Shown piece after piece: positions 39,007 to 57,916 of a DNA stretch of 64,000 nucleotides (the stretch's first letter is position 1; the number at the start of each line of letters is the position of its first letter). Origin of the DNA: Candidatus Caldarchaeum subterraneum (GTDB lineage: Archaea; Thermoproteota; Nitrososphaeria_A; Caldarchaeales; Caldarchaeaceae); assembly GCA_937934305.1 (NCBI GenBank), contig CALHAG010000002.1:142192-206191 (forward strand). The letters run 5' to 3'. Both the position numbers and the translations under genes were made by a program. A model generated the notes under the pieces. It made no database searches. It was not told the origin of the DNA and worked only from the letters and a program-made list of their open reading frames with translations.

Positions 39007-39007
39007 G

Positions 39008-40138
39008 TCATTCTTCCTCTGGTTTCCAAATGTCCTTGTTCGGGAAACCGCATTCCAAACATGCTACAGGAGCCCCGTGCGCCAACCCTCTCAGAACAGA
39101 GGAGCAGCTTGGGCATAGAAGCACCCGAACATTGTCAAGCGGCGGGTTGAGGTTTACGACTGGATAATAGGAGGGGAAGGGTGAGGTGTCCGCGGATATT
39201 AGCTTCATGAAGGCTCTCGGGTTTCTCGGGATGCTCAGGATTGCTTCAGGGCGTTTGAGCACTTCATGCAGATACGGTCCCTGCTTCACGGCTTTGAAGA
39301 GGTGCGGCCGCCAATCCAGCATCTTTACAGCTTCTTCGGGGCTCGGCAGCGGCTCACGCCGCTCCTCCACAGGCTGAGAACCGGTGTCTTGTTTCTTGTC
39401 TTCAGGCTTTGCTTTTAGACGCTTCACCGCTTGGAAAAACTTCGTGGCAGTTGTTTTCTTGACTCCGTTGACGAGGTGTTTTTCCTTAGACCGCCTATCC
39501 ACCACATGTATGCCCTCTTCTTCAAGCAGCTTTCTGGCGTCGAATCTCTCGACCATTGAGCGAACAGTTTCGAAAGGCAGGTTAAGCGATTCTGCCACTT
39601 TTCTCCATGAGCCGAGGAATTTATGGAGAGCGACTAGGCCTTCATAGAACTCCTCCTCGCTTAGAGGCAGTGTCTTGCCTTCGTCGCTTAATGCCCAGAG
39701 AAGGGCCTCCTTATCGCTTAAATCGAAAACATAGCAAGGTATCTCCTGTATCCCTGCTATGCGTGCGGCTTCGACACGGCGGGACCCTCTGACCACTCCA
39801 TATGTCCCATCTGGAAGCGGCCTGACGGCCACTGCTGAGACGAAGCCATGTTTAACTATGTCTTCCACCAACGGTTTCAGGTCACCAAGATTCTCTCTCG
39901 GGTTCATTGGGTCTTTCACTAGCTTGCTCAACGGCAGGGTTACGAGCTTAGGCTCGATTACCTGACCCATCATATTATTGCTCTTCGGAGGTATATTAAA
40001 GGAGTCTGGGCCATTTTCGGTCATCTCTCTCTCACCACCTCCAGTACACGGGCAGCCGTGGATTGACCAATTATTTTCGCCAAATGTTCGGTGGATATCC
40101 GGCGGAGGTCTTCCACCCTCCTGATACCAGCGTTCCAT
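39008..40138 (-). CDS. ParB-like nuclease-domain protein with a C-terminal zinc ribbon
   Basis: VRPLPDGTYGVVRGSRRVEAARIAG matches the ParB/Srx GxRRxxAA box. C-terminal CPSCSSVL...CLECGFPN. The likely true start is the ATG at 40024, which would give an ATGA overlap with the hel308 stop. Confidence 0.55.
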   Translation of the reverse strand: MERWYQEGGRPPPDIHRTFGENNWSIHGCPCTGGGEREMTENGPDSFNIPPKSNNMMGQVIEPKLVTLPLSKLVKDPMNPRENLGDLKPLVEDIVKHGFVSAVAVRPLPDGTYGVVRGSRRVEAARIAGIQEIPCYVFDLSDKEALLWALSDEGKTLPLSEEEFYEGLVALHKFLGSWRKVAESLNLPFETVRSMVERFDARKLLEEEGIHVVDRRSKEKHLVNGVKKTTATKFFQAVKRLKAKPEDKKQDTGSQPVEERREPLPSPEEAVKMLDWRPHLFKAVKQGPYLHEVLKRPEAILSIPRNPRAFMKLISADTSPFPSYYPVVNLNPPLDNVRVLLCPSCSSVLRGLAHGAPVACLECGFPNKDIWKPEEE

Positions 40139-42063: not shown

Positions 42064-42674
42064 TCGGCGACCACCTCAGGCCTTGACCAACCCAGCTCCG
42101 GAAGCTCCATGACCTCAACCATCCTAGCGTCTACGCTTTCGCCGGGCAGGAAGGAGAGGACCTTGGCGTAGAGGTTGCCCAGCATATCTCTAGAAAGGGA
42201 CACCACCTCTCCGACGTAGTAGGTTCTGCCGCCGCATTCAAGCTTTTTACCAGCGACGCTACATGGCCCAACCAAGGATTCATGGCTGTATGGATCCCTC
42301 CAGAAGACAACGGGCCTACCGGTTTCCCCACATCCAAGGCATGAATAGTCTTTCTGCAGAGATGTTTCTAGAACGGCTCCGCACTCTCTACATTTCATGG
42401 CCCAGAGACAGGGTAGGCGCCGGAAGATGCTGGGTTTTCCGCGGAAATGCTTAACCAGGTCATATTCCCTGCTGTTGATGAGAAGCCATAAAGAGCCTTC
42501 CCTGTCGATGTAGACGCGTTCCAGCTCGGGTAACGGAAGCCCGAGAGCGGGCTGGATACCGTGGGACGCCAGCTTCTCCCTGATTTTCTTATTGTGGACA
42601 ATAAAGTCCACGTACCGGTCTCTGTATATCCATGACGTGAAAGGCCCCACCATGAACCTGCCCAGCCTAGCCAT
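42060..42674 (-). CDS. Zinc-ribbon hypothetical protein, coupled to hel308
   Basis: CRECGAVL...CLGCGETG. Its stop overlaps the hel308 start. Confidence 0.35.
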   Translation of the reverse strand: MARLGRFMVGPFTSWIYRDRYVDFIVHNKKIREKLASHGIQPALGLPLPELERVYIDREGSLWLLINSREYDLVKHFRGKPSIFRRLPCLWAMKCRECGAVLETSLQKDYSCLGCGETGRPVVFWRDPYSHESLVGPCSVAGKKLECGGRTYYVGEVVSLSRDMLGNLYAKVLSFLPGESVDARMVEVMELPELGWSRPEVVAE

Positions 42675-44901: not shown

Positions 44902-45232
44902 TCCTCCTCGGCTCCCTCCTCTTTCTCCGCCTAGCTAGGGCAAGCATGCTGGCAAACAGGGTGGCTAAGGGCAAAGTGACCACGAGCATCGAAGGGTTGA
45001 CAACAGCCGTAGCCATCGCCGTGAAGACGATGATGTAGAAAACAGACTTGGCCGATAGAATCCCTTTGCCAACCTCGTCAGCACCCTGCTCTTCTCCATG
45101 TTTCCTCCGTGGAGGAGCTCTTGTCTGGGCTTCATGATAATCAGGCTCATATGCCGGCGGCTGCGATGCCATGCTCTCGTAAATCCTCTGGTTGATAATG
45201 TATTCATCCAAATAGCTGTCATCAGATGACAT
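44885..45232 (-). CDS. Small membrane protein, hypothetical
   Basis: 115 aa with one central TM (VFYIIVFTAMATAVV). Overlaps both neighbours by 11-17 nt. Confidence 0.3.
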   Translation of the reverse strand: MSSDDSYLDEYIINQRIYESMASQPPAYEPDYHEAQTRAPPRRKHGEEQGADEVGKGILSAKSVFYIIVFTAMATAVVNPSMLVVTLPLATLFASMLALARRRKRREPRRIGHEF

Positions 45233-47387
45233 ATTGCTTCATCTCCTCGAAATGCTTCAGCAATAGAATTCCGGGAATAGTCTTCTTATACCTCGTTCCA
45301 TCCATCCAAACTAGGCCATACTTGATGTAGTCATGAATGGAGGACTTGTCTTTCCAATTGCGGCAGAACCTGACAGCCACCGATGTGGGCAGTTTTCTAA
45401 GAATCTCGGCAGCCTCCTTGTTGATGGTTCTCTTTATCGCTAACTCTTTAGCGGCTATAACGTTGGACAGAAGCTCAAACTCCTCCGGGTCAAATTCTTG
45501 TGTATCGGTTTTTCTAGTCTCCTGCTTCTCTTCTACAGGTTCTTCTCCCGTGTTCGTTGCCTTGACTAAAGTCCTCTCCTTTGTCTCCTTTTCCTGTTTC
45601 TTCTTTTCAACATGTTTTCCGAGACAGCGACCATCGCTGGTCAGCACTCTGCCGCATTCGCTGCATGGCTTCGGCAGCCCGGGAGCCTTGTCTCCGCCAA
45701 GTTTCTCCCTCCGCATTTTGAAGATATAGCCATCCACGATGATTCTGGCCGGGTCTTGCCGGGACAGTGTCCTTATCCTCGCCGGCGTGACGAACCTGAT
45801 GTATGCCTCGCCTATCCCCAGCTCTGTTATCACGCGTCTGATGCTCTCGGGCGAGGTTTGGGAAAGAACCCACACATCCTCTGGAGAGGAGGTGTTGAAC
45901 ACGACCCACCGGTAGCAGGACTGTCTAATTCCGTCGGCTATGTCCGACAGCCTCTGCGTGACAAGAATCAACGCGACGGCGTAGCTTCTAGCGGTTCTGG
46001 CTATGTCTTCGAGCTTGCTACGGCTCCCCGAGTCCCTGCCGCCTCTGAGCTGGATAGGCTTGGTGACTAGGTACGCCTCGTCTATGACGACCACGACAGG
46101 CTTTTCTCTAGTGAAAGCCAGCGGCCCACGTTTCAGCATCATCTTGGCAAGCTTCCTAAGCAGGAACTCTAGGACTATTGCTCTGGTTTTCTCGTTCACA
46201 TCAGCCATGTTGAGCACCACGAGAGAGGGGCCATCCGCCGCAAACAATGGGCTATAGAGGTCGGAGACGCCGTAGGCATCTGTTTTAAAGACCGTCTTCA
46301 GGTCATACATCTTGTCGTAGATGCCTTCTATGGCGTCTTTGGTCTGCGGCCCATACTTCAGCTTCCCCTCCATTATTTCCCTCTCCACCTTCTCCAGTTT
46401 ATCCATCAGGTTTTCATACGTCAACTCGATGTTGGCGTGGCGCAGCTCGGCGTAGGCCACTCTGATGAAGTGAGCCTGCTTAGAGCCAACCTCCTCCAGA
46501 ACAGATATGCTGTCCATGAGGTCCTCAACCATCTGAGGCTCCGTCTCCCCCTCAAGGGCCTTGAACGGGTCTATGCCCGTGTGTGAGACCATGTAAATAG
46601 CCGCTCTCCCGTCGTCCACGTATCCGAGCTTGTAAAACGCTTCGGTGAAGTCGCCTTTGACATCGAAGAGCAAAACCTTGTAGCTCCCCATTAGCTGGGT
46701 GACTAGGCTAAACACTGTAGTTGTCTTGCCCGCCCCGCTCGCGCCAGCTATTATCATGTGCGGGTTGAACTCCCGCTCGCTCACGACCGGGGAATACCTC
46801 AGCTCTATGTTTCCGGGAATGGTGCGTACGAGGATATGGGTCTTGAGCTGAGCATCTTCATTGGTTTCGCGGTAGGGCTGCTCAACCATTCTCACGCTTT
46901 TGGAGACGGTGCCGAGGACGGCTGAGGACTCCTTGTTACCGGTTTCGACGTCTCTTCTAACCCTTCTGATTGTTGATGCCTGCTCAGCCACCGCGACTAT
47001 CGACGCTATGGTCGTCACCATCGGTATCGAGGGGAGGTTGGCTAGGACGATTGTGAAGGCTTTATGATATTCGAGCTGGGCGAAAACGGCTGCGATAACT
47101 AGGTCCAGCACAAGGCTTAGTATGAAGTAGTAGGCGCCCAAGCTCTTGGCGGCATACGCTATCGGAGCCGCGATGGAGGCGGGTCCCGAGCCTATCGGCC
47201 CCCAAGCCATCAAAGCCAGCATGATGGCGAAAAACACTCTGCCGACAATGAGTGCGCGAAGGCTCTTGACGGGCTTTATCTCAGGCGCGTTGCCTTCCCT
47301 AACCATGTAAAGGAATATGAAGGCTAGGATGTAGTTTAGGGCAAGGGCCGATGCTCCTAGGAAAGTTATCTCCATGTCACCATACAC
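45222..47387 (-). CDS. Membrane-anchored HerA/FtsK/VirD4-like P-loop ATPase with a C-terminal zinc ribbon
   Basis: N-terminal ~150-aa polytopic region. Walker A is MIIAGASGAGKTTTVFSL. Walker B is PVVVVIDEAYLV. C-terminal CSECGRVLTSDGRC. Confidence 0.6.
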   Translation of the reverse strand: MYGDMEITFLGASALALNYILAFIFLYMVREGNAPEIKPVKSLRALIVGRVFFAIMLALMAWGPIGSGPASIAAPIAYAAKSLGAYYFILSLVLDLVIAAVFAQLEYHKAFTIVLANLPSIPMVTTIASIVAVAEQASTIRRVRRDVETGNKESSAVLGTVSKSVRMVEQPYRETNEDAQLKTHILVRTIPGNIELRYSPVVSEREFNPHMIIAGASGAGKTTTVFSLVTQLMGSYKVLLFDVKGDFTEAFYKLGYVDDGRAAIYMVSHTGIDPFKALEGETEPQMVEDLMDSISVLEEVGSKQAHFIRVAYAELRHANIELTYENLMDKLEKVEREIMEGKLKYGPQTKDAIEGIYDKMYDLKTVFKTDAYGVSDLYSPLFAADGPSLVVLNMADVNEKTRAIVLEFLLRKLAKMMLKRGPLAFTREKPVVVVIDEAYLVTKPIQLRGGRDSGSRSKLEDIARTARSYAVALILVTQRLSDIADGIRQSCYRWVVFNTSSPEDVWVLSQTSPESIRRVITELGIGEAYIRFVTPARIRTLSRQDPARIIVDGYIFKMRREKLGGDKAPGLPKPCSECGRVLTSDGRCLGKHVEKKKQEKETKERTLVKATNTGEEPVEEKQETRKTDTQEFDPEEFELLSNVIAAKELAIKRTINKEAAEILRKLPTSVAVRFCRNWKDKSSIHDYIKYGLVWMDGTRYKKTIPGILLLKHFEEMKQYVI

Positions 47388-47901
47388 CTCTTCTCAAGAC
47401 ATACACCATGCTGCTGACCATTGCGCTGAAGCTGGTCACGGCGACGAAGGTCCACAGCCTGCTCTCCACGTTGAAAACCCGCTCCACAACGTCTCCATGG
47501 CTGGTCTCCATCCTCACTATGAACGTGGCCCTCGGGTAGGAGAATATGCGCCAAGAGGTTTCAGCGACACCTGATTCATCTGTGGAAACCTCTATAGATT
47601 CTCTAAACTCGGCATACTGTATCCTCAGCCTAGTGTTCGCAACGGGTCTGCAGACCGATGCATCCATTATTGTTGTCCCGTTGTCGAGAACCTTCCAGCA
47701 CCTCCCCCCGCTTCCAACCAGGTCTTCCACAACCAGTATCCGGAAAGTATATGGCCATAGGAAGTGAGCCTCCTGGGTTCTGTCGAAGAAGATTACGACC
47801 TTGGTGGGGTTGAAGCCGTCGGTGTTTTCATCGCCTATAGCCAGTGGCGCGGCCAGAGCCAGCAGCGCCAGAGACAATAGAAGAAGGTTAAGCGGTTTCA
47901 T
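47377..47901 (-). CDS. Secreted hypothetical protein
   Basis: Signal MKPLNLLLLSLALLALAAPLAIG. 174 aa. Embedded between the two ATPase genes. Confidence 0.35.
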   Translation of the reverse strand: MKPLNLLLLSLALLALAAPLAIGDENTDGFNPTKVVIFFDRTQEAHFLWPYTFRILVVEDLVGSGGRCWKVLDNGTTIMDASVCRPVANTRLRIQYAEFRESIEVSTDESGVAETSWRIFSYPRATFIVRMETSHGDVVERVFNVESRLWTFVAVTSFSAMVSSMVYVLRRGVW

Positions 47902-50683
47902 ACAGCATCTCCCTCCTGCTCATCCTCCTGCTCACCAGGGCCCTCTTGTCAGGCTCTATGCGGAAGAACAGCGGCCTGGGGTCGACGCTCCACTTGAGGA
48001 AGGCCTCGCCTGTCCCGAAGCCCTCCAGCCTCCTCCTCTCCTCGTCTGTCAGGTTAAGCAGCCTCTGGGCGTTCAGGGCCTCGCCCGGGTTACCGTAGCC
48101 GAAGGCAATCGTTGTGGAAACGAGTGCCGCCACGGTCGGGACACCTCTTCTCTTAGCCATGTCAGCCTCCTGAAGCAGGTCGTCGAGCAGATGCGTTATC
48201 ATGACGTAGCTGGTGCCGAACTTTCTCTCCTCCCTGAGGTGGGTACCGAGAGGGACTTCGCCGGCTTTTCCCAGCAAGAACTTGTGGCCCTCGTCGATTA
48301 TCACCATAAGCCTCACACCCTCCTTAACCTCTTGGCTGAGCATGTAATCATGTATGTGCTCGAGAATGCTCCAAGTGATTAGCCTCTGCATGTCGTCGCT
48401 CATACGCACCTGCCCGCCGCCAGACTGGGCGCGGAAACTCACTATCACGACACCTCCCTCCACCAGCAAATCCTTCAACATCACATCGGTCCTATCAAGC
48501 GCGAAAGCGCCCTCCGCATAGGGCCTCAGCCTCCTCTCTAGGTCAAGCAGCAGCGTTACGGCTGCGTCGAGCTCAGGCGAGCCTCCCCGCGAGATAACCA
48601 GCTTCTCAGCCTCTCTTCTCCTCCACGCAACATATGCATAGAGCTGGGCCATAGTACATTTAGACAGGTTCTCATCCCTCCATGTGGAGGGGTCTGAGTC
48701 ATCAACTCCGCCTATCCTCTTGTACATCAGCTTAAGCCCTTGGTAGAGTATGCTGGATTGGGTGGGCTGAAGCGGTATAGCATTGGGCAAAACCGCGTCC
48801 ACGAATCTGCTTATCCTCTGCTCGGGCGCTAGGCCTGAGAGAAGCAACGGGTTGTATTTCTTGTTGCAGAGGTCTACGACGGTGACCTTCAAGCCCATGG
48901 AGCGGAGCTCGTCAGCCTCGGCGGCGTATTCTCCGGCCGGGTCTATTATGATGACGGCGGGAGGCTTCCCCGTGCCAGAGTATTTGCTGAGGCCATCTAT
49001 CCTGAAGAGCAGCGTCTTTATCAGGGTGGACTTGCCGGTGCCGGGCGAGCCTAGCACAAGCATATGCGGGTTATGCAGCATCGACGGGTTCCAGTACACA
49101 GGCCTGCCATACTCGTCTCTGCCGAGGTATACGCCGTCCTTGGGCATTATTGGCCGGCGTCTGAAAGCCAGCGGGCTGACGGCCACGAAGTCCCTCGTCA
49201 ACGCTTTGACAACCGGTATCGGGTTGGGGTCGAAGACGGCTCTACGCGGCTGAGGAAGGTACATGAACCTGTGGCACAGCGCCGCTCCCCAGCCGTCTCC
49301 AACCACCTTTGTCGTGAAATTCATTGTGTCGAGGAGGCTGCGGGCCTCGTGAAGCTCCTTATCCAGCTTATCCAACTCTCTCCAGGAAACGTCTCCCGAG
49401 GCTCTAGCCCTAACCTCTACAACAAGGCTCATCAGGTAGGGCCTCTCCCCATGAGTTATTCTATCCGCCACATTCATGCTGCGGCCCGCTTTCAAGTAGC
49501 CGGACACGGCGCCGCCGACCTGAGCATCCATGCCGTACAGGTCAGCCCTTGCCATGGCGAGCTTGATTGTGTCGCCCACGGGCTGGGGAACTATGTGGAG
49601 AACAACCCTGAAGTCTTTGAGGGTGTAGATGAGGTTGTTGAAAGATGCGAGATACATGGCCAGCCTCCGCTCAATGTCTTCGGATGACAGGTCTCTGTTG
49701 TTGTTTCCAGTGACGGATAGATACTTCGATGCAATGGTCTCGCCATTGACGCGTCTAACCAATACGCCGTCCTCAAGGATGGAGTATTCCCCGCCTCCAA
49801 GGCTCCAGTGGGTATGTCTACCGGACAGCTTGCAGGTGGCTTTGGATACGCTGTTCGCCGCCCTGACGGTTAGTAGGAGGCCGATTATCCCGCTGATGAG
49901 GATTGTTGTCCCCAGTATTCCCAGCCCCGTGCTGAGCATTGATGTAAACAATGTCGCAAACGATGCGCTGCCGAGGATTATCACATGGTGCTTGGAGGGC
50001 TTGTAGGCGGCCTCGTCGCTGACGGCTATTTGATGACCCATGTATGACGCGTCGTCTATCACAACCGTTCCAATGCCTTCCATGCTTGTTGCAAGCGTTT
50101 TAGCAGCGGCCTCGACAGCGTGTACAGCGCCCTCCTCATCGCCCTCAACCACCTCGGAGTAGAGAACTATGTACGCGTATTCTCCTTGAGGCGACCTATC
50201 GATGATAAGCTTCGCCTCAACGTCGGCGAGGCCCTCTACAGCCTTCACCATTCTATCTAGTAGAAGCATCCTCTCATGCGCCGTCGTTGTTTCATAGTTT
50301 TTCTGCACGTCGGCTATCTTCAGCATCTTGACGGCGTAGCCTCTGCGCCTCCTCCTATCCTCGAAGAGCAGGGTTACTTCGCCGGGTTTTCTGGGGCCCT
50401 CGAAGAGCCTTATCTTGGTGGGCACACGCAGAGAATATGGGATATCAGGTGCGACGGCGAACCAGAAAGCCGTGGATGGAACGTTTTTCCTAAGGTATCC
50501 GACGGCGGCTGGATAGCTTCTCCTAGCGGCCAGCAGGGCTAGAAACACCGCCGGAAACAGGATAGCCATGTAGGGGGTATACGGAGCCAGTTGAGGGCTT
50601 AAGCCTATTATAGCTAATGTAACCAGTATAAGCCCGCCGAAGAAAAGCGGCCCGATGCCCAGAACCTTAGCAAGAACCCCCAT
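47888..50683 (-). CDS. VirB4/TrbE/CedB-like conjugation-type ATPase with N-terminal TM helices
   Basis: Walker A HMLVLGSPGTGKSTLIKTLL in the C-terminal half. Walker B is RLMVIIDEGHKFL. N-terminal hydrophobic helices. 931 aa. Confidence 0.65.
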   Translation of the reverse strand: MGVLAKVLGIGPLFFGGLILVTLAIIGLSPQLAPYTPYMAILFPAVFLALLAARRSYPAAVGYLRKNVPSTAFWFAVAPDIPYSLRVPTKIRLFEGPRKPGEVTLLFEDRRRRRGYAVKMLKIADVQKNYETTTAHERMLLLDRMVKAVEGLADVEAKLIIDRSPQGEYAYIVLYSEVVEGDEEGAVHAVEAAAKTLATSMEGIGTVVIDDASYMGHQIAVSDEAAYKPSKHHVIILGSASFATLFTSMLSTGLGILGTTILISGIIGLLLTVRAANSVSKATCKLSGRHTHWSLGGGEYSILEDGVLVRRVNGETIASKYLSVTGNNNRDLSSEDIERRLAMYLASFNNLIYTLKDFRVVLHIVPQPVGDTIKLAMARADLYGMDAQVGGAVSGYLKAGRSMNVADRITHGERPYLMSLVVEVRARASGDVSWRELDKLDKELHEARSLLDTMNFTTKVVGDGWGAALCHRFMYLPQPRRAVFDPNPIPVVKALTRDFVAVSPLAFRRRPIMPKDGVYLGRDEYGRPVYWNPSMLHNPHMLVLGSPGTGKSTLIKTLLFRIDGLSKYSGTGKPPAVIIIDPAGEYAAEADELRSMGLKVTVVDLCNKKYNPLLLSGLAPEQRISRFVDAVLPNAIPLQPTQSSILYQGLKLMYKRIGGVDDSDPSTWRDENLSKCTMAQLYAYVAWRRREAEKLVISRGGSPELDAAVTLLLDLERRLRPYAEGAFALDRTDVMLKDLLVEGGVVIVSFRAQSGGGQVRMSDDMQRLITWSILEHIHDYMLSQEVKEGVRLMVIIDEGHKFLLGKAGEVPLGTHLREERKFGTSYVMITHLLDDLLQEADMAKRRGVPTVAALVSTTIAFGYGNPGEALNAQRLLNLTDEERRRLEGFGTGEAFLKWSVDPRPLFFRIEPDKRALVSRRMSRREMLYETA

Positions 50684-50687
50684 GCTT

Positions 50688-51089
50688 TCACCTCCTCATC
50701 TTCACAACCAGCGCCACGGCGAAGGTGGACACGCCCACGATTAACGCGGCGAGCAGATGACCACTTATAGCCAGAACACCTGTGAACACGCCGCCGATTA
50801 TCAGGTATTTGCGCAGGCCAGCGTCGTAGGACACTTTCCTAGACGAGGGGCGCCTGCCACCTTTCTTGAGCAGGTCGACGGGCCTGCCGTTTTCATCCCT
50901 GATGTATGGGTCGTCGGGGTCTCTCGGCGTAGCCTCCTCCTCTCTTCGCCAGCCTCTCCTCAAGCCAAACTCATCTTCCTCACTCATTTTTCTCCTCACC
51001 ATTTTTCTTGTTTGAATTCTCCCCAGCCTGCCTCCATTCGGGAGGCATCTGGGACTCGGTATCGCCCACATCATTCTCCTTTTTTCCAA
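50688..51089 (-). CDS. Small C-terminally TM-anchored protein (VirB3-like position immediately upstream of the VirB4-like gene)
   Basis: C-terminal TM YLIIGGVFTGVLAISGHLLAALIVGVSTFAVALVV. The likely real start is the internal MSEEDEF, because the annotated N-terminus overlaps the upstream gene. Confidence 0.3.
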   Translation of the reverse strand: MEKRRMMWAIPSPRCLPNGGRLGRIQTRKMVRRKMSEEDEFGLRRGWRREEEATPRDPDDPYIRDENGRPVDLLKKGGRRPSSRKVSYDAGLRKYLIIGGVFTGVLAISGHLLAALIVGVSTFAVALVVKMRR

Positions 51090-54000
51090 AGTCTCCCCAA
51101 CTCATGTGTTCCGAAACATCCTGCGGCTCGGCGCTGGGCTCGCTTCCCGCCGTCCACCACGGCACCTTGAACTCGCCATCTGATTCGGAGCCAACCCGTT
51201 CAACAAAAGAGGCAGCGTCCTCCCTCTTTCCCAGAGAGTCGGCTACGCTGAAGAACTCGTCCAGAGTCCTCGGGTCATCGGCACCGGAGAAAATCTTCTC
51301 CCTGAGGCTATCCATGTACTGCTGCTGGGCCTCGGCCACGCCGGGGTCCGGCTGATAATCCGCTGGAGAGACATCGTAGCCCTTCGCCGGAGCAGCATGG
51401 GACATGCGCGCCCCCATCTCCTCCATCACTTTCATGAACTCGTCCAGCTCGTTCTTCGACACCTCGTAGGTCCCCATGTTCGTCTCCACGACAACCCTGT
51501 CGCCGCCGTCCACGAGGTTGGTGAGCCTGAAGTCAGGGTCATACGGGTTGGCGACAATCCACATATACTCGCCGATTCTCTCCTCGAATCTTCTAAAGTC
51601 CTCGGGCGTGCCGTAGGACCTGTGCATGTCGTAGGCGTGTTTGACGTCCGATGGGTCTCCTCCATAGTCATGCTGCTTTATGACGGGCTGCTCAGCCGTC
51701 CCCGCTGGGTGAAGTATGCCGGTCCTGAACTCAGGAACATAGGCAGGCGTCACCAACGGCCTAACGCCCTCGGGGGTGAAGGGGTTGTTATCCGCGGCGA
51801 GGCTGAACGCCGCCGGAGCCCTTATCTTTCCGTCGAGCTGGTCAGATATGTATCCGAAGAAGGCGCCGGCGCTTACATGGCCTGAGGCTGACAGCCTCGT
51901 GCTCATCCAGTCAGCAGCCTTCCCAACCGTTGGGGAGAGGATGCCCTCGACAAGGGATGCGCCAACAACGTGTTTGCCGAAGTCGCTTTTCGCGAAGCTG
52001 TCAACCAAGGCAATTCTCTCCGACATTGTTGAGGACTTGAGCATGTTTGCGAAGCCTTGCGCCACCTTCTCTGGACGCGCCTCAACCATCCTGCTCTGCT
52101 TAGCCCATCCTATCAAGAGGTCAGCCTTACGCATGGCCTCCTCCTGTGAATAGCCTTTCATCATGAGCCTCTCCGCATAGGCGTTTCTCACGGCTTCGGC
52201 GAACTTCGGGTCGCTTCTGACAGCGGACATGGCGACATTGGCGGTGTAGCTCCTTGTCATCACTCCGAGAACCAGCCTCTCAGCCCTTGCGACAATGCCT
52301 CTCTTGCCCTCAAGCTCCCGCTTCTTGTCCAGCATCCGCTCCATGACGCCGGAGAACCTTGTCCTCTCAGCGAATTTTTCCCACGACGCCCTGTTCCTCT
52401 CCCTCGCCTCTGTGGCGGCTTTGAGAAGCTGGTTCTCCTGCCTCCTCTGAATCCATCTAGCGATAAAGTCCACCCGGGACATCCGCTTAACCGCTGAAGC
52501 ATATGTTGTGAAGAACTTGGCCGCATGAGTGATGTTGCCAACCTTTGAGAAGAAGAAATGCATCATCACGCTTTGACCACCTACAAGCGACTGGAAAGTA
52601 TCTATGATGAGGGCTAGAAGACCAACAGCGATGCCTATGGCGAACGCCTGCCCTATCAATTCAGAGAGAGGCTTCAGAATAGCGACGCTCCCCGACCCAA
52701 CCATCAGGATGGGCAGAGTAGATATCGGAATATTGCTTCCAGCATACGCTCCATACGCGTTTCTGTAAAACGTCTCCGAAATGGTTCTGGCGAGAGGAAT
52801 GTTGGTGTCGAACACTGTGGCGTTAGTCTCCCAGTTCTGCTCCCTGTATGTGAGGAGGGCTGCGTTTATTCTCCGTGTAGCCTCATGACTAGGCCCATCC
52901 CTGTAAAGCCCCTGCCTAAAGTTCTGGTACCTAGCCCACTCGCCTCTAAAATTGTCCACGGAAATGCCTAGAATATTGTCGGGCACGTAGCCTCCCGACG
53001 CGAGCTGCCGAGTATACTCCCTGTCCTCGTCGAACTTGTGCCACTCTACCGGAGGCAGGTAAGGCATGGACTCGGAGGCCGTGAAGATGACCCTGAAGCT
53101 GTAGCTTAGGCTGTCGGGGACCTCTGGATAGCCGTCGTAGCTATCCCTTATGATTGTCTGGTTAGCTGTCACGAAGACTTTCTTCTGCTGGGTTGGGGCA
53201 TTCAATTCAAGAGGCTCGTTGCGGTCGATTGCTTCTACGCTCTGCGGCAGAGTGTAGGGGCCGTATCCATCTATGAAGCCCGCCGCCATAATCTCCTCGA
53301 AGCTTGAATCCAGAACGGTATGGTTCCATGTAGGTGGGTTTGATGTGGACGGCCTAAACTCGTAACTCCATGATGGTGTGCCGAGGCGTCTCTCGCATAC
53401 GTCGGTGCCGTTGACCGGGCCTCCATATATCGGGTCTATATGCCAGCAGACATCATAGTCATCCATGTTGAGGTAGACGAAGTATACGCTCTTGTTTCCG
53501 CTATAGTCGCCGCGGGTGTAGTAGTGCCAGCGCCAACAAGTCTCGGTGGTGGAGGAGTTGCCATCGGTCTCGCATGTGTATGTCTCGTTAACCGCCCACC
53601 TAAGCTCCCTCACCTTGGGCAGGGTTATACCATATATGTTCAGGTCCTCTTTCTTGGTTCCCCATGGCTGCTCCGTGAACCAGACGAAGGTTGTGTTCCT
53701 GTTGGCGGCCACCATCCAGAGACTTGTCTCGTTGTACAGGCTCGTGGACCTCCAGAAACTTTCCCACCTCTCTTTCCAAATCAGGTACGGGTTGCAAGAG
53801 ATTGAGCCATCGTCCCATCCGCCGAAGAAGAACTCCCGGTCAGGGTCAGTTCCGGTGCAGGCCATGGCGCTAGGGTCAGGGTCCTCGGGAACCTTGTGAA
53901 CTGTTATGTTGCGTGGAGAAGTGTCGTAGAGGGTCACCCACATGTTCAGGAACCAGACGCGCCTCGCGTAGGTGCCGTTAATCAGGGACATGCGGTAGCC

Positions 54001-55077
54001 CTCATCATAGGCGTTGTAGTATCCTCCGCCACCTGTGTCAAATATGGTCTTCTGAGGAGTCTTCAAAACATCTCTCATTATTTCTATTATTTGTTCGCAG
54101 GTCAGGTTGCCTCCGCGGGGCAGGTTAGCGCATACCTTGTCCCTATCTATCTCAGGAGGCTGAGTAAACTCGGCTGTTAGAAACGGGTACCACAATGTGT
54201 CGTTCTCCCTGTCATAAACCGTGTACCTCACGCCTCCCTCCATTTCGCCAACGCTCCTGCTGGCTATGCTAAGCTTCTGGATATCAGCGGCCTCCATGAT
54301 GCTGTTCTCAGCATAGCCCGGCGGAGGAGAAGCGGCTACAATGGCTACTGGGAGAGCGATGGTGAGGGTTGCACCGAGAACCATGAAGGTTTTGCCGACG
54401 CGCCTAGCGAAGGGTATCGCGAAAAGTACCAGGCCTATGGTGAATATGGCTGGGGCTACGAACTTAGCGAAGGACACGAATGCCACAACCCCCTCCATGA
54501 AGAGGACCACGCCGCTAAGCACCTTCGCTATAAACTGCAGCATGGCGAAGACGGCTCCGAAGATGAAGCTCGCTATCGCTGAGAGAAGTATTCCCACGCC
54601 CGATATCCAAGCCGGCAGAAGAGCCAGCATCATGATTGACTGGAGGGTGCCGAGAGCTATCGCCGCGTATGAAACCGCCTTCATCCACTCGAAAGCCATG
54701 TCCCTGCTGGCGCGAGCGGATGCGATGGCGTCGTCGAAGGTGGCTGTAAGCGGGAAACTGTATCCAAGGGAATGTAGGTAGCTTGAGACAATTGGTTTGA
54801 TGAGAGCTATGCTTCCTACAACGGCTAGAACCGCCACGGTTGACCAGCTATGCATCATCGCTGTGAAGCCCCAGCGCCTGAACTGGAGAATCGGGAGCCT
54901 GAACAATGCTATGCCAGAGGCATACACCAGCGCAGCCAAGCCGAAAACAATCTCAGCCTCCATAGCCATCACCCAAACCCGAGCGAAGCAGCCACCCCGC
55001 CTATGCCCTTTGAAAGGGCCGCGGCCGCAGCCGTCACTATCCCCCATCCCGCCAGCGAGCCTAACGCGAACCTCCAC
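50980..55077 (-). CDS. Giant (1365 aa) membrane protein: N-terminal polytopic domain (VirB6/CedA-like?) plus ~1000-aa extracellular W/Y/N-rich domain
   Basis: ~7 TM helices in the first ~330 aa, then ASPPPGYAENS, followed by many NxT/S sequons (NDTL, NGTY, NITV, NETS, NRTT, NGTD...). The likely real start is the internal MAMEAEIVFGL. Confidence 0.5.
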   Translation of the reverse strand: MEVRVRLAGGMGDSDGCGRGPFKGHRRGGCFARVWVMAMEAEIVFGLAALVYASGIALFRLPILQFRRWGFTAMMHSWSTVAVLAVVGSIALIKPIVSSYLHSLGYSFPLTATFDDAIASARASRDMAFEWMKAVSYAAIALGTLQSIMMLALLPAWISGVGILLSAIASFIFGAVFAMLQFIAKVLSGVVLFMEGVVAFVSFAKFVAPAIFTIGLVLFAIPFARRVGKTFMVLGATLTIALPVAIVAASPPPGYAENSIMEAADIQKLSIASRSVGEMEGGVRYTVYDRENDTLWYPFLTAEFTQPPEIDRDKVCANLPRGGNLTCEQIIEIMRDVLKTPQKTIFDTGGGGYYNAYDEGYRMSLINGTYARRVWFLNMWVTLYDTSPRNITVHKVPEDPDPSAMACTGTDPDREFFFGGWDDGSISCNPYLIWKERWESFWRSTSLYNETSLWMVAANRNTTFVWFTEQPWGTKKEDLNIYGITLPKVRELRWAVNETYTCETDGNSSTTETCWRWHYYTRGDYSGNKSVYFVYLNMDDYDVCWHIDPIYGGPVNGTDVCERRLGTPSWSYEFRPSTSNPPTWNHTVLDSSFEEIMAAGFIDGYGPYTLPQSVEAIDRNEPLELNAPTQQKKVFVTANQTIIRDSYDGYPEVPDSLSYSFRVIFTASESMPYLPPVEWHKFDEDREYTRQLASGGYVPDNILGISVDNFRGEWARYQNFRQGLYRDGPSHEATRRINAALLTYREQNWETNATVFDTNIPLARTISETFYRNAYGAYAGSNIPISTLPILMVGSGSVAILKPLSELIGQAFAIGIAVGLLALIIDTFQSLVGGQSVMMHFFFSKVGNITHAAKFFTTYASAVKRMSRVDFIARWIQRRQENQLLKAATEARERNRASWEKFAERTRFSGVMERMLDKKRELEGKRGIVARAERLVLGVMTRSYTANVAMSAVRSDPKFAEAVRNAYAERLMMKGYSQEEAMRKADLLIGWAKQSRMVEARPEKVAQGFANMLKSSTMSERIALVDSFAKSDFGKHVVGASLVEGILSPTVGKAADWMSTRLSASGHVSAGAFFGYISDQLDGKIRAPAAFSLAADNNPFTPEGVRPLVTPAYVPEFRTGILHPAGTAEQPVIKQHDYGGDPSDVKHAYDMHRSYGTPEDFRRFEERIGEYMWIVANPYDPDFRLTNLVDGGDRVVVETNMGTYEVSKNELDEFMKVMEEMGARMSHAAPAKGYDVSPADYQPDPGVAEAQQQYMDSLREKIFSGADDPRTLDEFFSVADSLGKREDAASFVERVGSESDGEFKVPWWTAGSEPSAEPQDVSEHMSWGDFGKKENDVGDTESQMPPEWRQAGENSNKKNGEEKNE

Positions 55078-55811
55078 ATCTTCATCAAAGTGTTGTTTTC
55101 AGGGTTGAGGAGCCACGCAACCAAGTCGAAGACGTTCTGCGGATTGGGTAGAACAAAGTCAGCCAGACTACATGCGTTTGCCTCTCCGGCTCCGCATGCG
55201 AGCAACCCTATAGCGGGTATGTAGGGCCCTGCGGCCACGAAAGCTATTGAAGCCGCTATAAACCATGCGCCTATTCCCCTGAGCTTTCCTCCGGGGACAG
55301 CCAGCAGGGCCACGCCAAGGGGAGCGAGGACCACTGCTAGCGAGCCGAAGACCGTTAAAAACACCATCAAGGTGAAGCTTGTTATAAGCGTCACGGAGAG
55401 GGCTAGACCCGGCAGAGAGGCGATTACGCTAAAGATGTTGGCTATCGCCGGCCCCACTATAGGTATCAGAGCGGTCCCCATTCCTATCCCCGTAATGATG
55501 GCCAGCAGCGAGAAGGCCTTATTGCCTACAGTCAAATACAGCGTTGGAAGGTCAGAACACTCAATCCTCGGAGCGGCTATAGAAGATGAAACAATATTGA
55601 TTAAACCATTGATAGAATTGGCTACGCCTAGGACGGCTACGACGCCGGCAGCCACGAGGCTGTATGAGATTAGGTGACCGCCCCATGAGCTGCCGCTTCC
55701 GCCCGGCAAAGGGGTTCTATGCAGGGCTAAGCCAACCGCATAGCCCAGGCTGACAAGGGCCCAGGCGACGGCGGCGTATTCACCCAACCCCGCGTAGGTA
55801 CAGCTAATCAT
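54969..55811 (-). CDS. Polytopic membrane protein (CedA/VirB6-like candidate)
   Basis: 280 aa with ~7 hydrophobic helices. Sits between the pilin candidate and the giant membrane protein. Confidence 0.4.
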   Translation of the reverse strand: MISCTYAGLGEYAAVAWALVSLGYAVGLALHRTPLPGGSGSSWGGHLISYSLVAAGVVAVLGVANSINGLINIVSSSIAAPRIECSDLPTLYLTVGNKAFSLLAIITGIGMGTALIPIVGPAIANIFSVIASLPGLALSVTLITSFTLMVFLTVFGSLAVVLAPLGVALLAVPGGKLRGIGAWFIAASIAFVAAGPYIPAIGLLACGAGEANACSLADFVLPNPQNVFDLVAWLLNPENNTLMKMWRFALGSLAGWGIVTAAAAALSKGIGGVAASLGFG

Positions 55812-55848
55812 CTAAACCGCCTCAAAAAAAGGAGGGGGGATGTGGTGT

Positions 55849-56373
55849 TCAACTTGGCACGTCCCAGGGACCGCCTATAGGTATAGACGAGCCCTGCCCT
55901 GACGCTGCCACAGCCACGTCGGCTGCGAATTTTATGATGTAGAGGCCCAGCGCGGTCAGCCCGCCGACTATCAGCGCGCTGTCAATCAGTTGTCCGGCGC
56001 CCTCCTTGGTCCTGTGAGACCCTAGAGGCAGGAACTTTATCGCTATCCCCGCGCCCAGCAGAGCCATCGCAATCAGCAGGAGAAGCTGCTGAAACCCTTG
56101 CAACGGCTCCCTAATCAAGTTTGCAACCCCTCCCGCGCCCGCTGCGTGAACCGTCTGAGACGCCAGAGCCGTCGCCGCCAGTTGCACAGCCGTCAATGCC
56201 GCAGGCCTGAGCCGTGCCAACACCTTTCCCATTCTCCAAGCCTTGTGGGTTTTCATGGTCGCTTCGAGACCGTCTCCGAACATGATAATAGATAAACTTT
56301 TGGTGGCAAACCTGAACGAGAACTGAACGAAAGTTGAACGTAAGTTGAACGAGGAGAAACTATTTTCGGTCAA
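55849..56373 (-). CDS. VirB2/TrbC/CedA1-like pilin candidate; the probable true start is the ATG at 56256
   Basis: From the internal Met: MKTHKAWRMGKVLARLRPAALTAVQLAATALA (signal-like), then two hydrophobic helices separated by a short charged loop (GSHRTKEGAG). The annotated N-terminal 39 aa read through the promoter/repeat region. Confidence 0.4.
   Translation of the reverse strand: MTENSFSSFNLRSTFVQFSFRFATKSLSIIMFGDGLEATMKTHKAWRMGKVLARLRPAALTAVQLAATALASQTVHAAGAGGVANLIREPLQGFQQLLLLIAMALLGAGIAIKFLPLGSHRTKEGAGQLIDSALIVGGLTALGLYIIKFAADVAVAASGQGSSIPIGGPWDVPS
56282..56300 (-). promoter_or_regulatory. Candidate TATA-like promoter for the 15-gene minus-strand array
   Basis: The minus strand reads AAAAGTTTATCTATTATCATG ~27-45 nt upstream of the ATG at 56256. 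It lies immediately next to the TGAACG array. Confidence 0.3.
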
Positions 56374-56481
56374 GGTATCTGTGAAGTGGCTGAATTTTGG
56401 CGAATTAGGCTGACCATAATTACTCGGCCGTCGTTCAATTCTCGTTCAGTTTACGTTCAACTTTGCCACCAAAAATTTATA
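56295..56481. repeat. ~55-bp inverted repeat (arms 56295-56354 and 56428-56481) carrying TGAACG boxes at exact 11-bp phasing
   Basis: Left arm TTTTGGTGGCAAACCTGAACGAGAACTGAACGAAAGTTGAACGTAAGTTGAACG has TGAACG at 56313, 56324, 56335 and 56346. Right arm CGTTCAATTCTCGTTCAGTTTACGTTCAACTTTGCCACCAAAAA has CGTTCA at 56432, 56443 and 56454. A third direct copy of the right arm is at 56880-56934. Confidence 0.7.
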
Positions 56482-56635
56482 TAGGGTTCTTCATGATGTC
56501 AACTAGGCTATTTAAAGGTAAATGGTTAATGCCATGTAAAAAATCGGCTTATTTCGCCATAACTCGCCAATCCAGAAGAAATGGTGGAAGAGACGGAAAA
56601 AGCCCAGTTTTAGTGGATTGACGTAATGCAAGCTC

Positions 56636-56760
56636 GTTTTTGACAATATTTGGTCAACCCCCATCCGTGGAGAGGCGAAATTTCCGGGAATTAGGGCGGA
56701 TTATATGTTGACCGAAATTAGTCAGAGTTTGGTATTACGCCCCGTTTCTAGAGCCTAGAG
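56636..56760. repeat. Copy of the composite palindrome-containing repeat unit (degenerate palindrome TTGACAATATTTGGTCAA)
   Basis: TTGACAATATTTGGTCAACCCCCATCCGTGGAGAGGCGAAATTTCCGGGAATTAGGGCGGATTATATGTTGACCGAAATTAGTCAGAG. Confidence 0.6.
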
Positions 56761-56879
56761 AGGATGAGTTTCGGGTCTTTAAGTCTACGGATTCCGCAAA
56801 ACAGACAAATATTAAGACATTTGACGAAAAAATGGATATGATGAGTGATGGTTTTAGACGGTGACCGAAATTACTCAGC

Positions 56880-56934
56880 CGTCGTTCAAATCACGTTCAA
56901 TTCTCGTTCAAGTTTGCCACCAAAAATTTATAAG
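56880..56934. repeat. Direct repeat of the right arm (CGTTCA x3 at 11-bp phasing + TTTGCCACCAAAAATTTATA)
   Basis: ~90% identical to 56428-56481. CGTTCA at 56882, 56893 and 56904. Confidence 0.65.
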
Positions 56935-56989
56935 CCATCAGTTTTGAGACAGTCCCAGACCAAGCCCTTAACCGAGGGGTTTGGTCCCA

Positions 56990-57410
56990 TAAACCCTACG
57001 TGAAATACCGATGAGGCCCTGTTGCGGCAGGGCTGAGCTGGAGAGGCGCATGCGGAGCGTCCCGTGACGGGGTTCGTCAGATACCTCGTCACCCGAGGGC
57101 TGGGAGCCGGCATGCCTGGCCCAAGGCCCCGGACACTCACGTAGGGTGTGCCGAAGCCGGCGATGCATAGGTGCTGCGGACGCTTGGTAGAGGGGCACCC
57201 CCGCCACCGAAGCGACCAACGGACCCACAAGGCTTGGAGGTGGATGCAGGGATGCCCCATAGGGAGGAGAATAAGCCTCCTTATAGGGCTTCCCACCCTC
57301 TCCAACGCCTACGAGAAGAGCTACCGGTGACTATAAGGGGTACTAACGGGACTGGTGACATGCGGTGTCCGGTGACCTATGTAGGTCTCCGAAGTGACTA
57401 AGGGGCAGGC
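56990..57410. ncRNA. GC-rich hairpin-dense non-coding segment (candidate structured RNA of unknown class)
   Basis: No coherent ORF; the tracks show only Arg/Pro-rich spurious frames. There are many local hairpins (GCCCTGttgcggCAGGGC, CCCGtgaCGGG, GGCATGCC). A 10-bp perfect inverted repeat CCCTACGTGA (56993) / TCACGTAGGG (57141) closes a ~140-nt domain. I compared it to RNase P and SRP RNA motifs and the resemblance was partial and inconsistent. Confidence 0.25.
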
Positions 57411-57490
57411 TTAGGGGTTGGATAGATTATCCAAGAGGGCTCTAAGGAGACGGCTGAGGTGTTGGATAGATTATCCAAGGGGGTTGGATG
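57408..57490. repeat. Three copies of the palindrome TTGGATAGATTATCCAA spaced 44 and 22 bp apart (iteron/operator-like)
   Basis: Copies at 57408-57424, 57452-57468 and 57474-57490 (the third is TTGGATGGATTATCCAA). Each is flanked by G-runs. The spacings are multiples of 11 bp. Confidence 0.7.
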
Positions 57491-57916
57491 GATTATCCAA
57501 GGGGCTGGCTACGACAACTTGGGGGTGGCTAAGGGGTTGGTAACAAGAATTGTTCTAACCCATTAGAACCCTCTACCATGCGTGTAATGGGCTTCCGCGC
57601 CCGGGCTGACCATGCGCCCAAAAGGCCTCCGAAAAGGGAAATCCCCGGAACCGCAGCAGGGGAGAAGAGGCCGAAGACATGGCAACAGACCCGGGACAAG
57701 GGGGAGAACGGTTGGCTGACTCTCCCCGCCATCCCGGAGCCCACTCCCGGGAAACTCTTCCCGGCAACGCCCGTTCACGCGGGCGGGGGGCTCAACAACA
57801 CATGCCCCCCGAAGATGCCAGAAGAAAGGCCGGGATGGGCTCCGGCCATCGACGACAGGCGGGGGGAGAACTCCCCGGTGGCCCGCCGGGGAGGAGGTGA
57901 AAAGAATGAAGAGGAG

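What the first reader, a model, noticed from the sequence alone, without database searches (positions are those of the whole stretch)
56295..56934. Inverted and direct repeats carrying TGAACG boxes at exact 11-bp phasing upstream of the DNA-transfer operon
The left arm has four direct TGAACG boxes at 56313, 56324, 56335 and 56346. The right arm, on the opposite strand, has three at the same 11-bp period, and a third arm copy lies 450 bp further on. All are capped by TTTGGTGGCAAA/TTTGCCACCAAA.

Helical-face phasing of a short box in multiple arms is characteristic of cooperative protein binding, such as origin iterons, centromere-like parS arrays, or a nucleoprotein operator.

The array abuts the putative TATA box of the 15-gene operon. 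It could therefore be the master control site for DNA-exchange induction, or a replication/partition site of an integrated element.
Basis: seen in the sequence. Interest (0 to 1): 0.6.

Follow-up and report, generated by a model that had tools for sequence, protein, structure and literature searches.

The report
Phased operator arrays on archaeal transfer-operon promoters
The repeats are three copies of one promoter-plus-operator module that sit between two back-to-back DNA-transfer gene clusters of a hot-spring archaeon, and they most likely let one unidentified DNA-binding protein switch both clusters together.

Summary
TGAACG-N5-TGAACG occurs 7 times in 64 kb, all here, against 0.22 expected.

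The three arms are copies of one module. In promoter orientation it reads TGACCGAAATTA, then 3-4 CGTTCA boxes at 11-bp spacing, then TTTGCCACCAAA, then BRE/TATA. Geometry relative to the TATA box is identical in all three: cap at -14, boxes at -22/-33/-44(/-55).

The left copy is the core promoter of a 15-gene Ced/Ted-like pilus/T4SS operon. Its TATA lies 38-41 nt before the pilin ATG in eight related loci. The two right copies fire the other way, into a conserved ~0.95-kb non-coding stretch and a second T4SS gene set.

A relative with 76% protein identity keeps the boxes while the spacers differ, and its box number changes only by whole 11-bp units. Other lineages carry different operator sequences at the same position.

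My best reading is phased operators for a cooperative, element-specific transcription regulator. Its identity and sign are unknown. Origin iterons and a parS-type centromere are poorly supported.

One side finding is unexplained. The non-coding stretch carries a copy of the pilin mRNA 5' end, usually without its start codon, and that copy co-varies with the pilin gene in 5 of 6 lineages.

The parts
56289..56296 (-). TATA box of the left module (TTTATCTA on the minus strand), the pilin-operon promoter
   Evidence: Read directly. Its first base is 40 nt from the pilin ATG at 56256. The equivalent distance is 38-41 nt in 8 loci of 5 operator types.
56299..56310 (-). Cap TTTGCCACCAAA of the left module. 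Its 3' half overlaps the A-rich BRE position.
   Evidence: Exact match. It starts at -14 from the TATA box in all three modules.
56313..56351 (-). Four CGTTCA boxes at 11-bp spacing (left module)
   Evidence: The boxes lie at -22, -33, -44 and -55 from the TATA box.
56361..56372 (-). Distal D motif TGACCGAAAATA of the left module
   Evidence: The distance from D to the first box is a constant 20-21 nt in 7 type-A modules.
56411..56422 (+). Distal D motif TGACCATAATTA of module R1
56432..56459 (+). Three CGTTCA boxes at 11-bp spacing (module R1)
56462..56483 (+). Cap TTTGCCACCAAA, then AA, then TATA box TTTATATA (module R1)
56638..56748 (+). One copy of a ~110-nt dispersed repeat unit. It holds the palindrome TTGACAATATTTGGTCAA, the motif AATTTCCGGGAATT and an orphan D motif TGACCGAAATTA.
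   Evidence: Further copies lie at 14655-14850, 22268-22520 and 36610-36715.
56862..56873 (+). Distal D motif of module R2
56883..56910 (+). Three CGTTCA boxes at 11-bp spacing (module R2)
56913..56934 (+). Cap, then AA, then TATA box TTTATAAG (module R2)
55849..56256 (-). First gene of the operon: a pilin-like protein with a signal-like helix followed by two hydrophobic helices
   Evidence: The ATG at 56283 lies only 6 nt downstream of the TATA box, which is too close to serve as the start.
36713..56256 (-). 15-gene operon. Its products are the pilin, a CedA1-like polytopic membrane protein, a 1327-aa protein, two VirB4/HerA-like ATPases, a Hel308-like helicase, a ParB-like protein, two KaiC/RadA-like ATPases and an MCM-like AAA+ protein.
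56955..57900 (+). Conserved non-coding stretch downstream of module R2, a candidate structured RNA or leader
   Evidence: Conserved blocks across 5 lineages. Fold z-score -5.2 on the + strand and -3.9 on the minus strand. Consensus fold -48 kcal/mol with 17 compensatory pairs. No Rfam match.
57207..57239 (+). Copy of the pilin mRNA 5' end (56266-56234, minus strand) lacking the start codon
   Evidence: (I7).

Best explanation
The repeats are three copies of one composite archaeal promoter-operator module. In promoter orientation each reads: distal motif TGACCGAAATTA, 20-21 nt, then 3 or 4 CGTTCA boxes spaced exactly 11 bp apart, then TTTGCCACCAAA overlapping the BRE, then a TATA box.

Shown:
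- The left copy is the core promoter of a 15-gene Ced/Ted-like pilus/T4SS operon.
- The two right copies point the opposite way. They lead into an AT-rich repeat unit, then a conserved non-coding stretch, then a second set of T4SS-type genes.

Inferred:
- The boxes are operators for one sequence-specific regulator encoded by the element or specific to it.
- One protomer binds per helical turn on one face of the DNA, directly upstream of BRE/TATA, so all three promoters respond together.
- Because the sites lie upstream of the BRE, the position rule for archaeal regulators slightly favours activation by TFB/TBP recruitment.
- The regulator is not identified.
For: - The arrays occur only here and far exceed chance.
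- Geometry is identical in the three modules: cap at -14, boxes at -22/-33/-44(/-55), D at -65 or -76.
- A TATA-like box lies 38-41 nt upstream of the pilin ATG in 8 loci, so these are real core promoters.
- The L133/L204 element, at 76% identity in the CedA1-like protein, has four such modules. Boxes and cap are conserved and spacers differ.
- Across the 7 type-A modules, box number is 2, 3 or 4, differing by whole 11-bp units, and the D-to-first-box distance is constant.
- Other lineages carry different operators at the same position abutting the TATA box. These are CGTCCA/CGTAAC at an 11-bp period, TGCAACG-N7-8-CGTTGCA, GGAGCA/TGCTCC palindromes, and GACTGTATCTG inverted repeats.
- Operator type does not follow the structural-gene tree. 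The window is closer to the type-B element than to the other type-A element in all five genes compared. This points to a swappable specificity module.
- A metagenome scan found box-plus-cap modules only on contigs of these elements.
- Variants with different operator types occur in the same assemblies.
Against: - No transcription data exist, so TSSs and promoter activity are inferred.
- Pfam found no wHTH, RHH, TFB or StbA-like regulator among the window ORFs.
- Module R1 has no recognisable gene or conserved RNA downstream.
- The distal D motif is part of a dispersed ~110-nt repeat found at three other places in the window. Part of each arm may therefore owe its presence to that repeat rather than to promoter function.
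- Close relatives are 100% identical across the region, so no polymorphism test was possible.
Confidence: 0.68

Rival explanations
1. The arrays act primarily, or additionally, as a centromere-like or DNA-positioning site. An adaptor protein would coat the phased repeats to segregate or recruit the element's DNA to the transfer machinery, and promoter control would be a by-product. The models are R388 StbA/stbDR and R1 ParR/parC.
For: R388 stbDRs are two sets of five 9-bp direct repeats spaced by 2 nt, giving an 11-bp period. They lie around a promoter between divergent operons next to oriT, and 2-3 copies sit at other promoters (PMC3098194). The operon here encodes a ParB-like protein and an ATPase with a ParA/CbiA-type P-loop hit.
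Against: - Every array is locked in register to its own outward-facing TATA box. A pure centromere does not need this.
- No StbA-, ParR- or RHH-type gene was detected.
- ParB-family HTH proteins bind palindromes, and the nearby AATTTCCGGGAATT motif is a better fit for that than the boxes.
Confidence: 0.15
2. The arrays are replication-origin iterons of an integrated or excised element, bound by an initiator next to an AT-rich unwinding region.
For: The 56257-56950 region is AT-rich, at 41% GC against 53% for the window. It is dense in repeats. An MCM-like AAA+ protein and helicases are encoded in the operon.
Against: - Only a 6-bp core per 11-bp unit is conserved, whereas iterons are usually 17-22 bp.
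- The arrays lie in both orientations, each fused to BRE/TATA.
- No Rep or Orc1-type initiator is adjacent.
- Another repeat family, 7 copies of CTTGCGCATGTGCRG at 58618-58891, is a better origin or oriT candidate.
Confidence: 0.05
3. The arms are terminal inverted repeats or recombination sites of a small mobile insertion (MITE-like) and have no regulatory role.
For: The left and R1 arms form a 52-nt inverted repeat 91 nt apart. A dispersed ~110-nt repeat family overlaps the distal ends of the arms.
Against: - The box-plus-cap part occurs nowhere else in the window or in other genomic contexts.
- The same architecture persists in a relative at 76% protein identity with changed spacers.
- The third copy is direct, not inverted.
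- The arm ends coincide with TATA boxes at a conserved distance from the pilin ATG.
Confidence: 0.03

Closest known systems
StbA-stbDR system of IncW plasmid R388 (PMC3098194)
   Same: Short direct repeats with an 11-bp period occur in several sets around a promoter. The promoter lies between divergently transcribed conjugation-related operons, and smaller sets of 2-3 repeats sit at other promoters of the same element.
   Different: The R388 system is bacterial, with 9-bp repeats in sets of five and a known HTH protein encoded next to the site. Here only a 6-bp core is conserved, in sets of 2-4. The promoters are archaeal BRE/TATA promoters, no StbA-like gene was found, and no oriT is known.
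F55 repressor operators of Sulfolobus virus SSV1 (PMC5569661)
   Same: An archaeal mobile element carries tandem 11-nt repeat operators (ATAGATAGAGT) at several of its own promoters. They are bound in a concentration-dependent way to switch the element's life cycle.
   Different: F55 sites overlap the BRE and the TSS, consistent with repression. Here the boxes lie upstream of the BRE at -22 to -55 from the TATA box. F55 is a small RHH protein, and no RHH gene was detected here.
UV-inducible hexanucleotide A(N)TTTC of Sulfolobus ups/ced-regulon promoters (PMC5817253)
   Same: A non-palindromic hexamer just upstream of the BRE is needed for expression of an archaeal DNA-exchange apparatus.
   Different: That motif is a single hexamer at -44 to -39 with a different sequence, present at more than 200 chromosomal promoters. 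Here there are 2-4 phased copies, confined to one element, with lineage-specific sequence.
Ced/Ted DNA-transfer systems and thaumarchaeal integrative-conjugative elements (PMC9905601, PMC6563490)
   Same: The gene order starts with a pilin followed by a polytopic CedA-like membrane protein. There are VirB4/HerA-like ATPases and a ParB-like gene, and no relaxase.
   Different: No regulatory region has been described for those systems. The thaumarchaeal ICEs are reported to encode a TFB next to ParB, and no TFB was found in this window.

Membership tests
Archaeal BRE/TATA core promoter | An AT-rich TATA box of about 8 nt with an A/purine-rich BRE immediately upstream | tested here: met
   The three sequences are CCAAAAG-TTTATCTA, CCAAAAA-TTTATATA and CCAAAAA-TTTATAAG.
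Archaeal BRE/TATA core promoter | The TATA box lies about 25-30 nt upstream of the TSS, at a conserved distance from the first gene | tested here: inconclusive
   The TATA-to-ATG distance is 38-41 nt in 8 loci, consistent with a 5' UTR of about 10-14 nt. The TSS itself cannot be mapped with these tools.
Phased direct-repeat operator/positioning arrays (R388 stbDR type) | Several sets of short direct repeats with an 11-bp period at promoters of one element | tested here: met
Phased direct-repeat operator/positioning arrays (R388 stbDR type) | A cognate StbA-type HTH protein encoded beside the repeats | tested here: not met
   No such domain appears in the Pfam scans of the neighbouring ORFs.
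ParR/parC centromere (R1 type) | Repeat arrays flanking the promoter of a parMR/parAB operon that encodes an RHH adaptor | tested here: not met
   The downstream genes are the pilin and T4SS genes, and no RHH protein was detected.
ParB-parS centromere | A palindromic site of about 16 bp bound by a ParB HTH domain | tested here: not met
   The boxes are non-palindromic direct repeats. A ParB-like protein is present. The palindromic candidate is a different motif, AATTTCCGGGAATT.
Iteron-type replication origin | Iterons of 17-22 bp next to an initiator gene and an AT-rich unwinding element | tested here: not met
   Only a 6-bp core is conserved per 11 bp. No initiator gene is adjacent. An AT-rich region is present.
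Ced/Ted-type DNA-transfer system (context of the operon) | A VirB2-like pilin, a CedA/VirB6-like polytopic membrane protein and a VirB4-like ATPase | tested here: inconclusive
   - ATPases: DUF87/AAA_10/TrwB hits.
- Second gene: a weak precomputed PF27251 CedA1 hit and about 6-7 hydrophobic segments.
- Pilin: only its secondary-structure pattern fits. It has no PDB sequence match, and the fold search used a low-confidence model.
Sulfolobales DNA-damage hexanucleotide regulon | A single A(N)TTTC hexamer at -44 to -39, genome-wide | tested here: not met
   The sequence, copy number and distribution all differ.

The most novel reading that the evidence does not exclude
The arrays may be one layer of a two-layer switch for an archaeal conjugative pilus. 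The same phased operators would drive both the pilin operon and a divergent, conserved and apparently structured RNA.

That RNA carries a copy of the pilin mRNA 5' end, in which the start codon is usually lost. The copy matches its own pilin gene exactly over 15-26 nt in 5 of 6 lineages, although the sequence differs between lineages.

Three mechanisms would fit:
- An RNA decoy for a factor that binds the pilin mRNA 5' end.
- The template for an antisense RNA made from a conserved minus-strand BRE/TATA-like element at 57283-57300.
- The inverted-repeat arms of an invertible 972-bp promoter segment that uncouples the pilin body from its start codon.
Probability: 0.3. Interest if true: 0.8.

Novelty: new variant of a known kind. 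Interest (0 to 1): 0.55.

Why it matters
Archaeal conjugation and Ced/Ted-type DNA exchange are mechanistically known only from pilus structures and a few genes. I found no published description of how such systems are switched on outside Sulfolobales, and the organisms here are uncultured.

This locus gives a precisely defined cis-element with fixed geometry, unit-wise copy-number variation and five natural specificity variants. It could be used directly in EMSA, footprinting and in vitro transcription to fish out the regulator. It could also test whether co-resident elements avoid cross-regulation in the way immunity groups do.

The co-varying pilin 5' copy, if functional, would be a new post-transcriptional or DNA-inversion layer of control for an archaeal mating pilus.

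Tried and rejected
- **IMG/VR scans.** Scans for the cap and for two conserved non-coding motifs gave only chance hits.
- **Rfam.** Nothing at gathering threshold, and nothing credible at the relaxed threshold.
- **Finding the regulator.** Pfam on about 60 ORFs found no HTH, RHH, TFB or AbrB domain.
- **AbrB-looking protein (62xxx-62425).** It has no significant PDB sequence match. It is also absent from variants that keep type-A or other operators, so I dropped it.
- **ParB-like protein.** It is only 53% identical between the type-A and type-B elements. Neighbouring genes of that half of the operon are equally diverged at 52-73%, so this is not a specificity signal.
- **C2H2 zinc-finger protein.** It is conserved in all variants, but its finger residues do not sort by operator type. 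Its model is unusable, with pLDDT 38.6.
- **Pilin.** The model had pLDDT 62, and the fold search gave no meaningful match.
- **Polymorphism test.** It was impossible, because most close relatives are 100% identical over 55800-57650 and none falls below 98.5%.
- **Integer-turn spacing.** The 451 = 41x11 bp gap between R1 and R2 does not hold in the relative, so I treat it as coincidence.

Full report
**Observation.** TGAACG-N5-TGAACG, allowing 1 mismatch, has 7 matches in 64 kb. All lie in these arrays, against 0.22 expected, and 0 of 100 shuffles reach 7. The exact 12-mer cap occurs three times and only here. Outside the arrays the bare hexamer is at background, 25 copies against 22.9 expected. 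The repeat finder gives the left and right arms as 52 nt at 85% complementarity. The right and third arms are 71-nt direct copies, 87% identical and 451 bp apart.

**Anatomy.** In promoter orientation the three arms are one module. It reads TGACC(G/A)(A/T)AATTA ("D"), then 20-21 nt, then [CGTTCA-N5] three or four times, then TTTGCCACCAAA, then 2 nt, then a TATA box. The TATA boxes are TTTATCTA, TTTATATA and TTTATAAG.

Relative to the first T of the TATA box the geometry is identical in all three. The cap starts at -14 and the boxes at -22, -33 and -44. The left module has an extra box at -55. D lies at -65 or -76. The A-rich 3' half of the cap sits where an archaeal BRE is expected; this rests on established knowledge of archaeal promoters, as summarised in PMC5817253. 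The region is AT-rich, at 41% GC against 53% for the window.

**What the modules face.** The left module points into a 15-gene minus-strand operon at 56256-36713. Its products, in order, are:
- a 135-aa pilin-like protein, with a signal-like helix and two hydrophobic helices;
- a 280-aa polytopic membrane protein with a weak precomputed CedA1 (PF27251) hit;
- a 1327-aa protein and a 99-aa membrane protein;
- two VirB4/HerA-like ATPases;
- a Hel308-like helicase;
- a ParB-like protein;
- two KaiC/RadA-like ATPases and an MCM-like AAA+ protein.

The pilin followed by a CedA-like protein, plus VirB4-like ATPases, is the layout described for Ted/Ced systems (PMC9905601). The ATG at 56283 is only 6 nt past the TATA box and cannot be the start. 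The start is 56256, 40 nt from the TATA box. The same 38-41 nt distance holds in eight related loci. That is the strongest evidence that these are real core promoters.

Modules R1 and R2 point rightwards. R1 faces an AT-rich ~450-bp unit with no credible ORF. R2 faces ~0.95 kb of conserved non-coding sequence. After that come a small two-helix membrane protein, a VirB4/VirD4-like ATPase that is split in this window, a C2H2 zinc-finger protein and others.

**Origin.** Homologues of the CedA1-like protein are named by their sources Candidatus Caldarchaeum, Nitrososphaerota and Ca. Terraquivivens. The exact protein occurs on many metagenome and MAG contigs whose sequence over 55800-57650 is 98.5-100% identical to the window.

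**Comparative evidence.** The L133 and L204 contigs overlap and together form one element, at 76% identity in the CedA1-like protein. This element has four type-A modules with 4, 3, 2 and 3 boxes.

An alignment of all seven type-A modules shows which parts are constrained:
- TGACC, the two TATA-proximal boxes and the cap are invariant, while the spacers differ.
- Box number changes only by whole 11-bp units.
- The distance from D to the first box stays at 20-21 nt.

This is the pattern expected when the helical phase between bound proteins and the core promoter is under selection.

Other lineages keep the architecture but not the sequence:
- L131: CGTCCA/CGTAAC boxes at an 11-bp period.
- L138, L139 and L145: TGCAACG-N7-8-CGTTGCA palindromes.
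- L141 and L272: GGAGCA/TGCTCC palindromes.
- L271: GACTGTATCTG inverted repeats.

In every case the operator abuts the TATA box of both outward-facing promoters.

Operator type does not follow the gene tree. In all five structural genes compared, the window is closer to type-B L131 than to type-A L133. The control module has therefore been exchanged by recombination. Elements of different operator type occur in the same assemblies: GCA_006214125.1, GCA_038827915.1 and ERZ27245615. A metagenome-wide scan for box-plus-cap found it only on contigs of these elements.

**Mechanism.** The fixed register and the lineage-specific sequences are shown. From them I infer that the boxes are operators for a sequence-specific regulator tied to the element. 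It would bind cooperatively, one protomer per turn, on one DNA face immediately upstream of BRE/TATA, and so co-regulate the divergent transfer gene sets.

An 11-bp period is slightly longer than the 10.5-bp helical repeat. Thermal untwisting at hot-spring temperatures moves the repeat towards 11 bp; this is my own knowledge and was not tested.

The sign of regulation is open. Sites upstream of the BRE usually activate in archaea (the position rule discussed in PMC5817253). The TATA boxes are near-consensus, though, and transfer genes of mobile elements are usually kept off.

**The regulator.** It was not identified. Pfam found no HTH, RHH or TFB domain. Two weak candidates remain. One is the C2H2 zinc-finger protein at 61470-62021, which is conserved in all variants. 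The other is the ParB-like protein, whose PDB alignment runs into the HTH region.

**Rivals.**
- An StbA/stbDR-like dual operator and positioning role is the most serious rival. The R388 repeats share the 11-bp period, the multiple sets and the location between divergent conjugation operons. No cognate protein is evident here, and the strict coupling of every array to a TATA box points to transcription as the primary role.
- Iterons and parS fail their defining features (see the membership table).
- A MITE origin is contradicted by the absence of box-plus-cap copies elsewhere and by conservation in a diverged relative.

**Side findings.**
1. D, the motif AATTTCCGGGAATT and an 18-bp palindrome belong to a ~110-nt dispersed repeat unit. 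Copies lie at 14655-14850, 22268-22520, 36610-36715 (immediately after the operon's last gene) and 56638-56748. AATTTCCGGGAATT resembles the Noc/ParB-family site ATTTCCCGGGAAAT (string found in PMC7383237). It is the better parS-like candidate for the operon's ParB-like protein. This is a lead only.
2. The stretch downstream of R2 is conserved in five lineages. It folds better than shuffles on both strands, more so on the plus strand.
3. Just upstream of the invariant AGGGATGCCCCATAGGG, that stretch holds a same-sense copy of the pilin mRNA 5' end. In the window CGAAGCGACCA-ACGG-ACCCACAAGGCTTGGAG matches the pilin's CGAAGCGACCA-TGAAA-ACCCACAAGGCTTGGAG. L133/L204, L131, L141 and L272 each have their own matching pair of 15-26 nt, with alignment scores of 38-45 against a shuffle maximum of 26-31. 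The ATG is lost in four of the five; in L272 it is ATG to ACG. Type C lacks the copy. This within-element identity, with divergence between elements, is unexplained. The candidates are a decoy RNA, an antisense RNA and an invertible switch. All assembled contigs share one orientation, which weighs against frequent inversion.
4. Seven CTTGCGCATGTGCRG repeats lie at 58618-58891.

**Limits.** Everything about function is inferred from sequence and comparison. No expression or binding data could be accessed.

Noticed in passing
window 57207-57239 versus 56266-56234 (minus strand); also L204, L131, L141 and L272: The predicted 5' end of the pilin mRNA (short UTR to codon 8) is duplicated in the divergent non-coding region, in the same sense as the + strand. 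The match is exact over 15-26 nt within each of 5 lineages but differs between lineages. The start codon is lost in 4 of the 5. At the DNA level the two copies form inverted repeats flanking the 972-bp promoter region.
   Followed up: partly
window 56955-57900: About 0.95 kb of conserved non-coding sequence lies between module R2 and a small membrane-protein gene. Conserved blocks include GCCGGCA...GAAGCCGGC, GGGCACCCC...GGGATGCCCC, a hairpin ending in CCTTATAGGG, three TTGGATRGATTATCCAA palindromes (57418-57500) and GTTCTAAC-N3-TTAGAAC. The fold z-score is -5.2 on the + strand. There is no Rfam match.
   Followed up: partly
window 57283-57300 (minus strand): An invariant CCCTATAAGG is preceded on the minus strand by an A/purine-rich hexamer (GGGAAG, ATAAAG, GGAAAA or GGTAAA in four lineages). 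This looks like a conserved minus-strand BRE/TATA. It would transcribe an RNA antisense to the pilin mRNA 5' end.
   Followed up: no
window 14655-14850, 22268-22520, 36610-36715, 56638-56748 (fragment at 56393-56425): A dispersed ~110-nt repeat unit, often in tandem. It consists of the 18-bp palindrome TTGACCATATATGGTCAA, then AATTT(T/C)(G/C)G(C/G)GAATT, then TGACCGAAAATAC-TC-GAAAAGTATTAC. One copy sits immediately after the last gene of the transfer operon. The central motif resembles the Noc/ParB-family site ATTTCCCGGGAAAT.
   Followed up: partly
window 58618-58891: Seven copies of CTTGCGCATGTGCRG at irregular spacing (27-81 bp) lie in a ~1.1-kb stretch covered only by spurious-looking ORFs. 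L204 1700-2100 appears to have similar TGCGCATG repeats. This is a possible origin or oriT.
   Followed up: no
window 59788-60252 and 60137-61216: The VirB4/VirD4-like ATPase on the divergent side is split into two overlapping ORFs here. It is one intact 416-aa gene in L145. The cause could be a frameshift, a pseudogene or a sequencing error.
   Followed up: no
window 58336-58470; L204 1412-1669; L139 1110-1241: A small ORF of about 44 aa ends in ...NQLF in three lineages. Its N-terminal part is poorly conserved.
   Followed up: no
L131, L133, L135, L138 and L141 contig ends: Many assemblies of related elements break 0.5-1.2 kb upstream of the pilin gene, inside the repeated promoter modules. 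The control region is therefore systematically under-assembled in public data.
   Followed up: no
window 1096-4754, 17036-20182 and 28328-29959: The rest of the window carries type IV pilus/T2SS-like ATPase and platform genes, an Eco57I/MmeI-type methylase-restriction protein and a GmrSD-type nuclease. This fits a large mobile island around the transfer genes.
   Followed up: no
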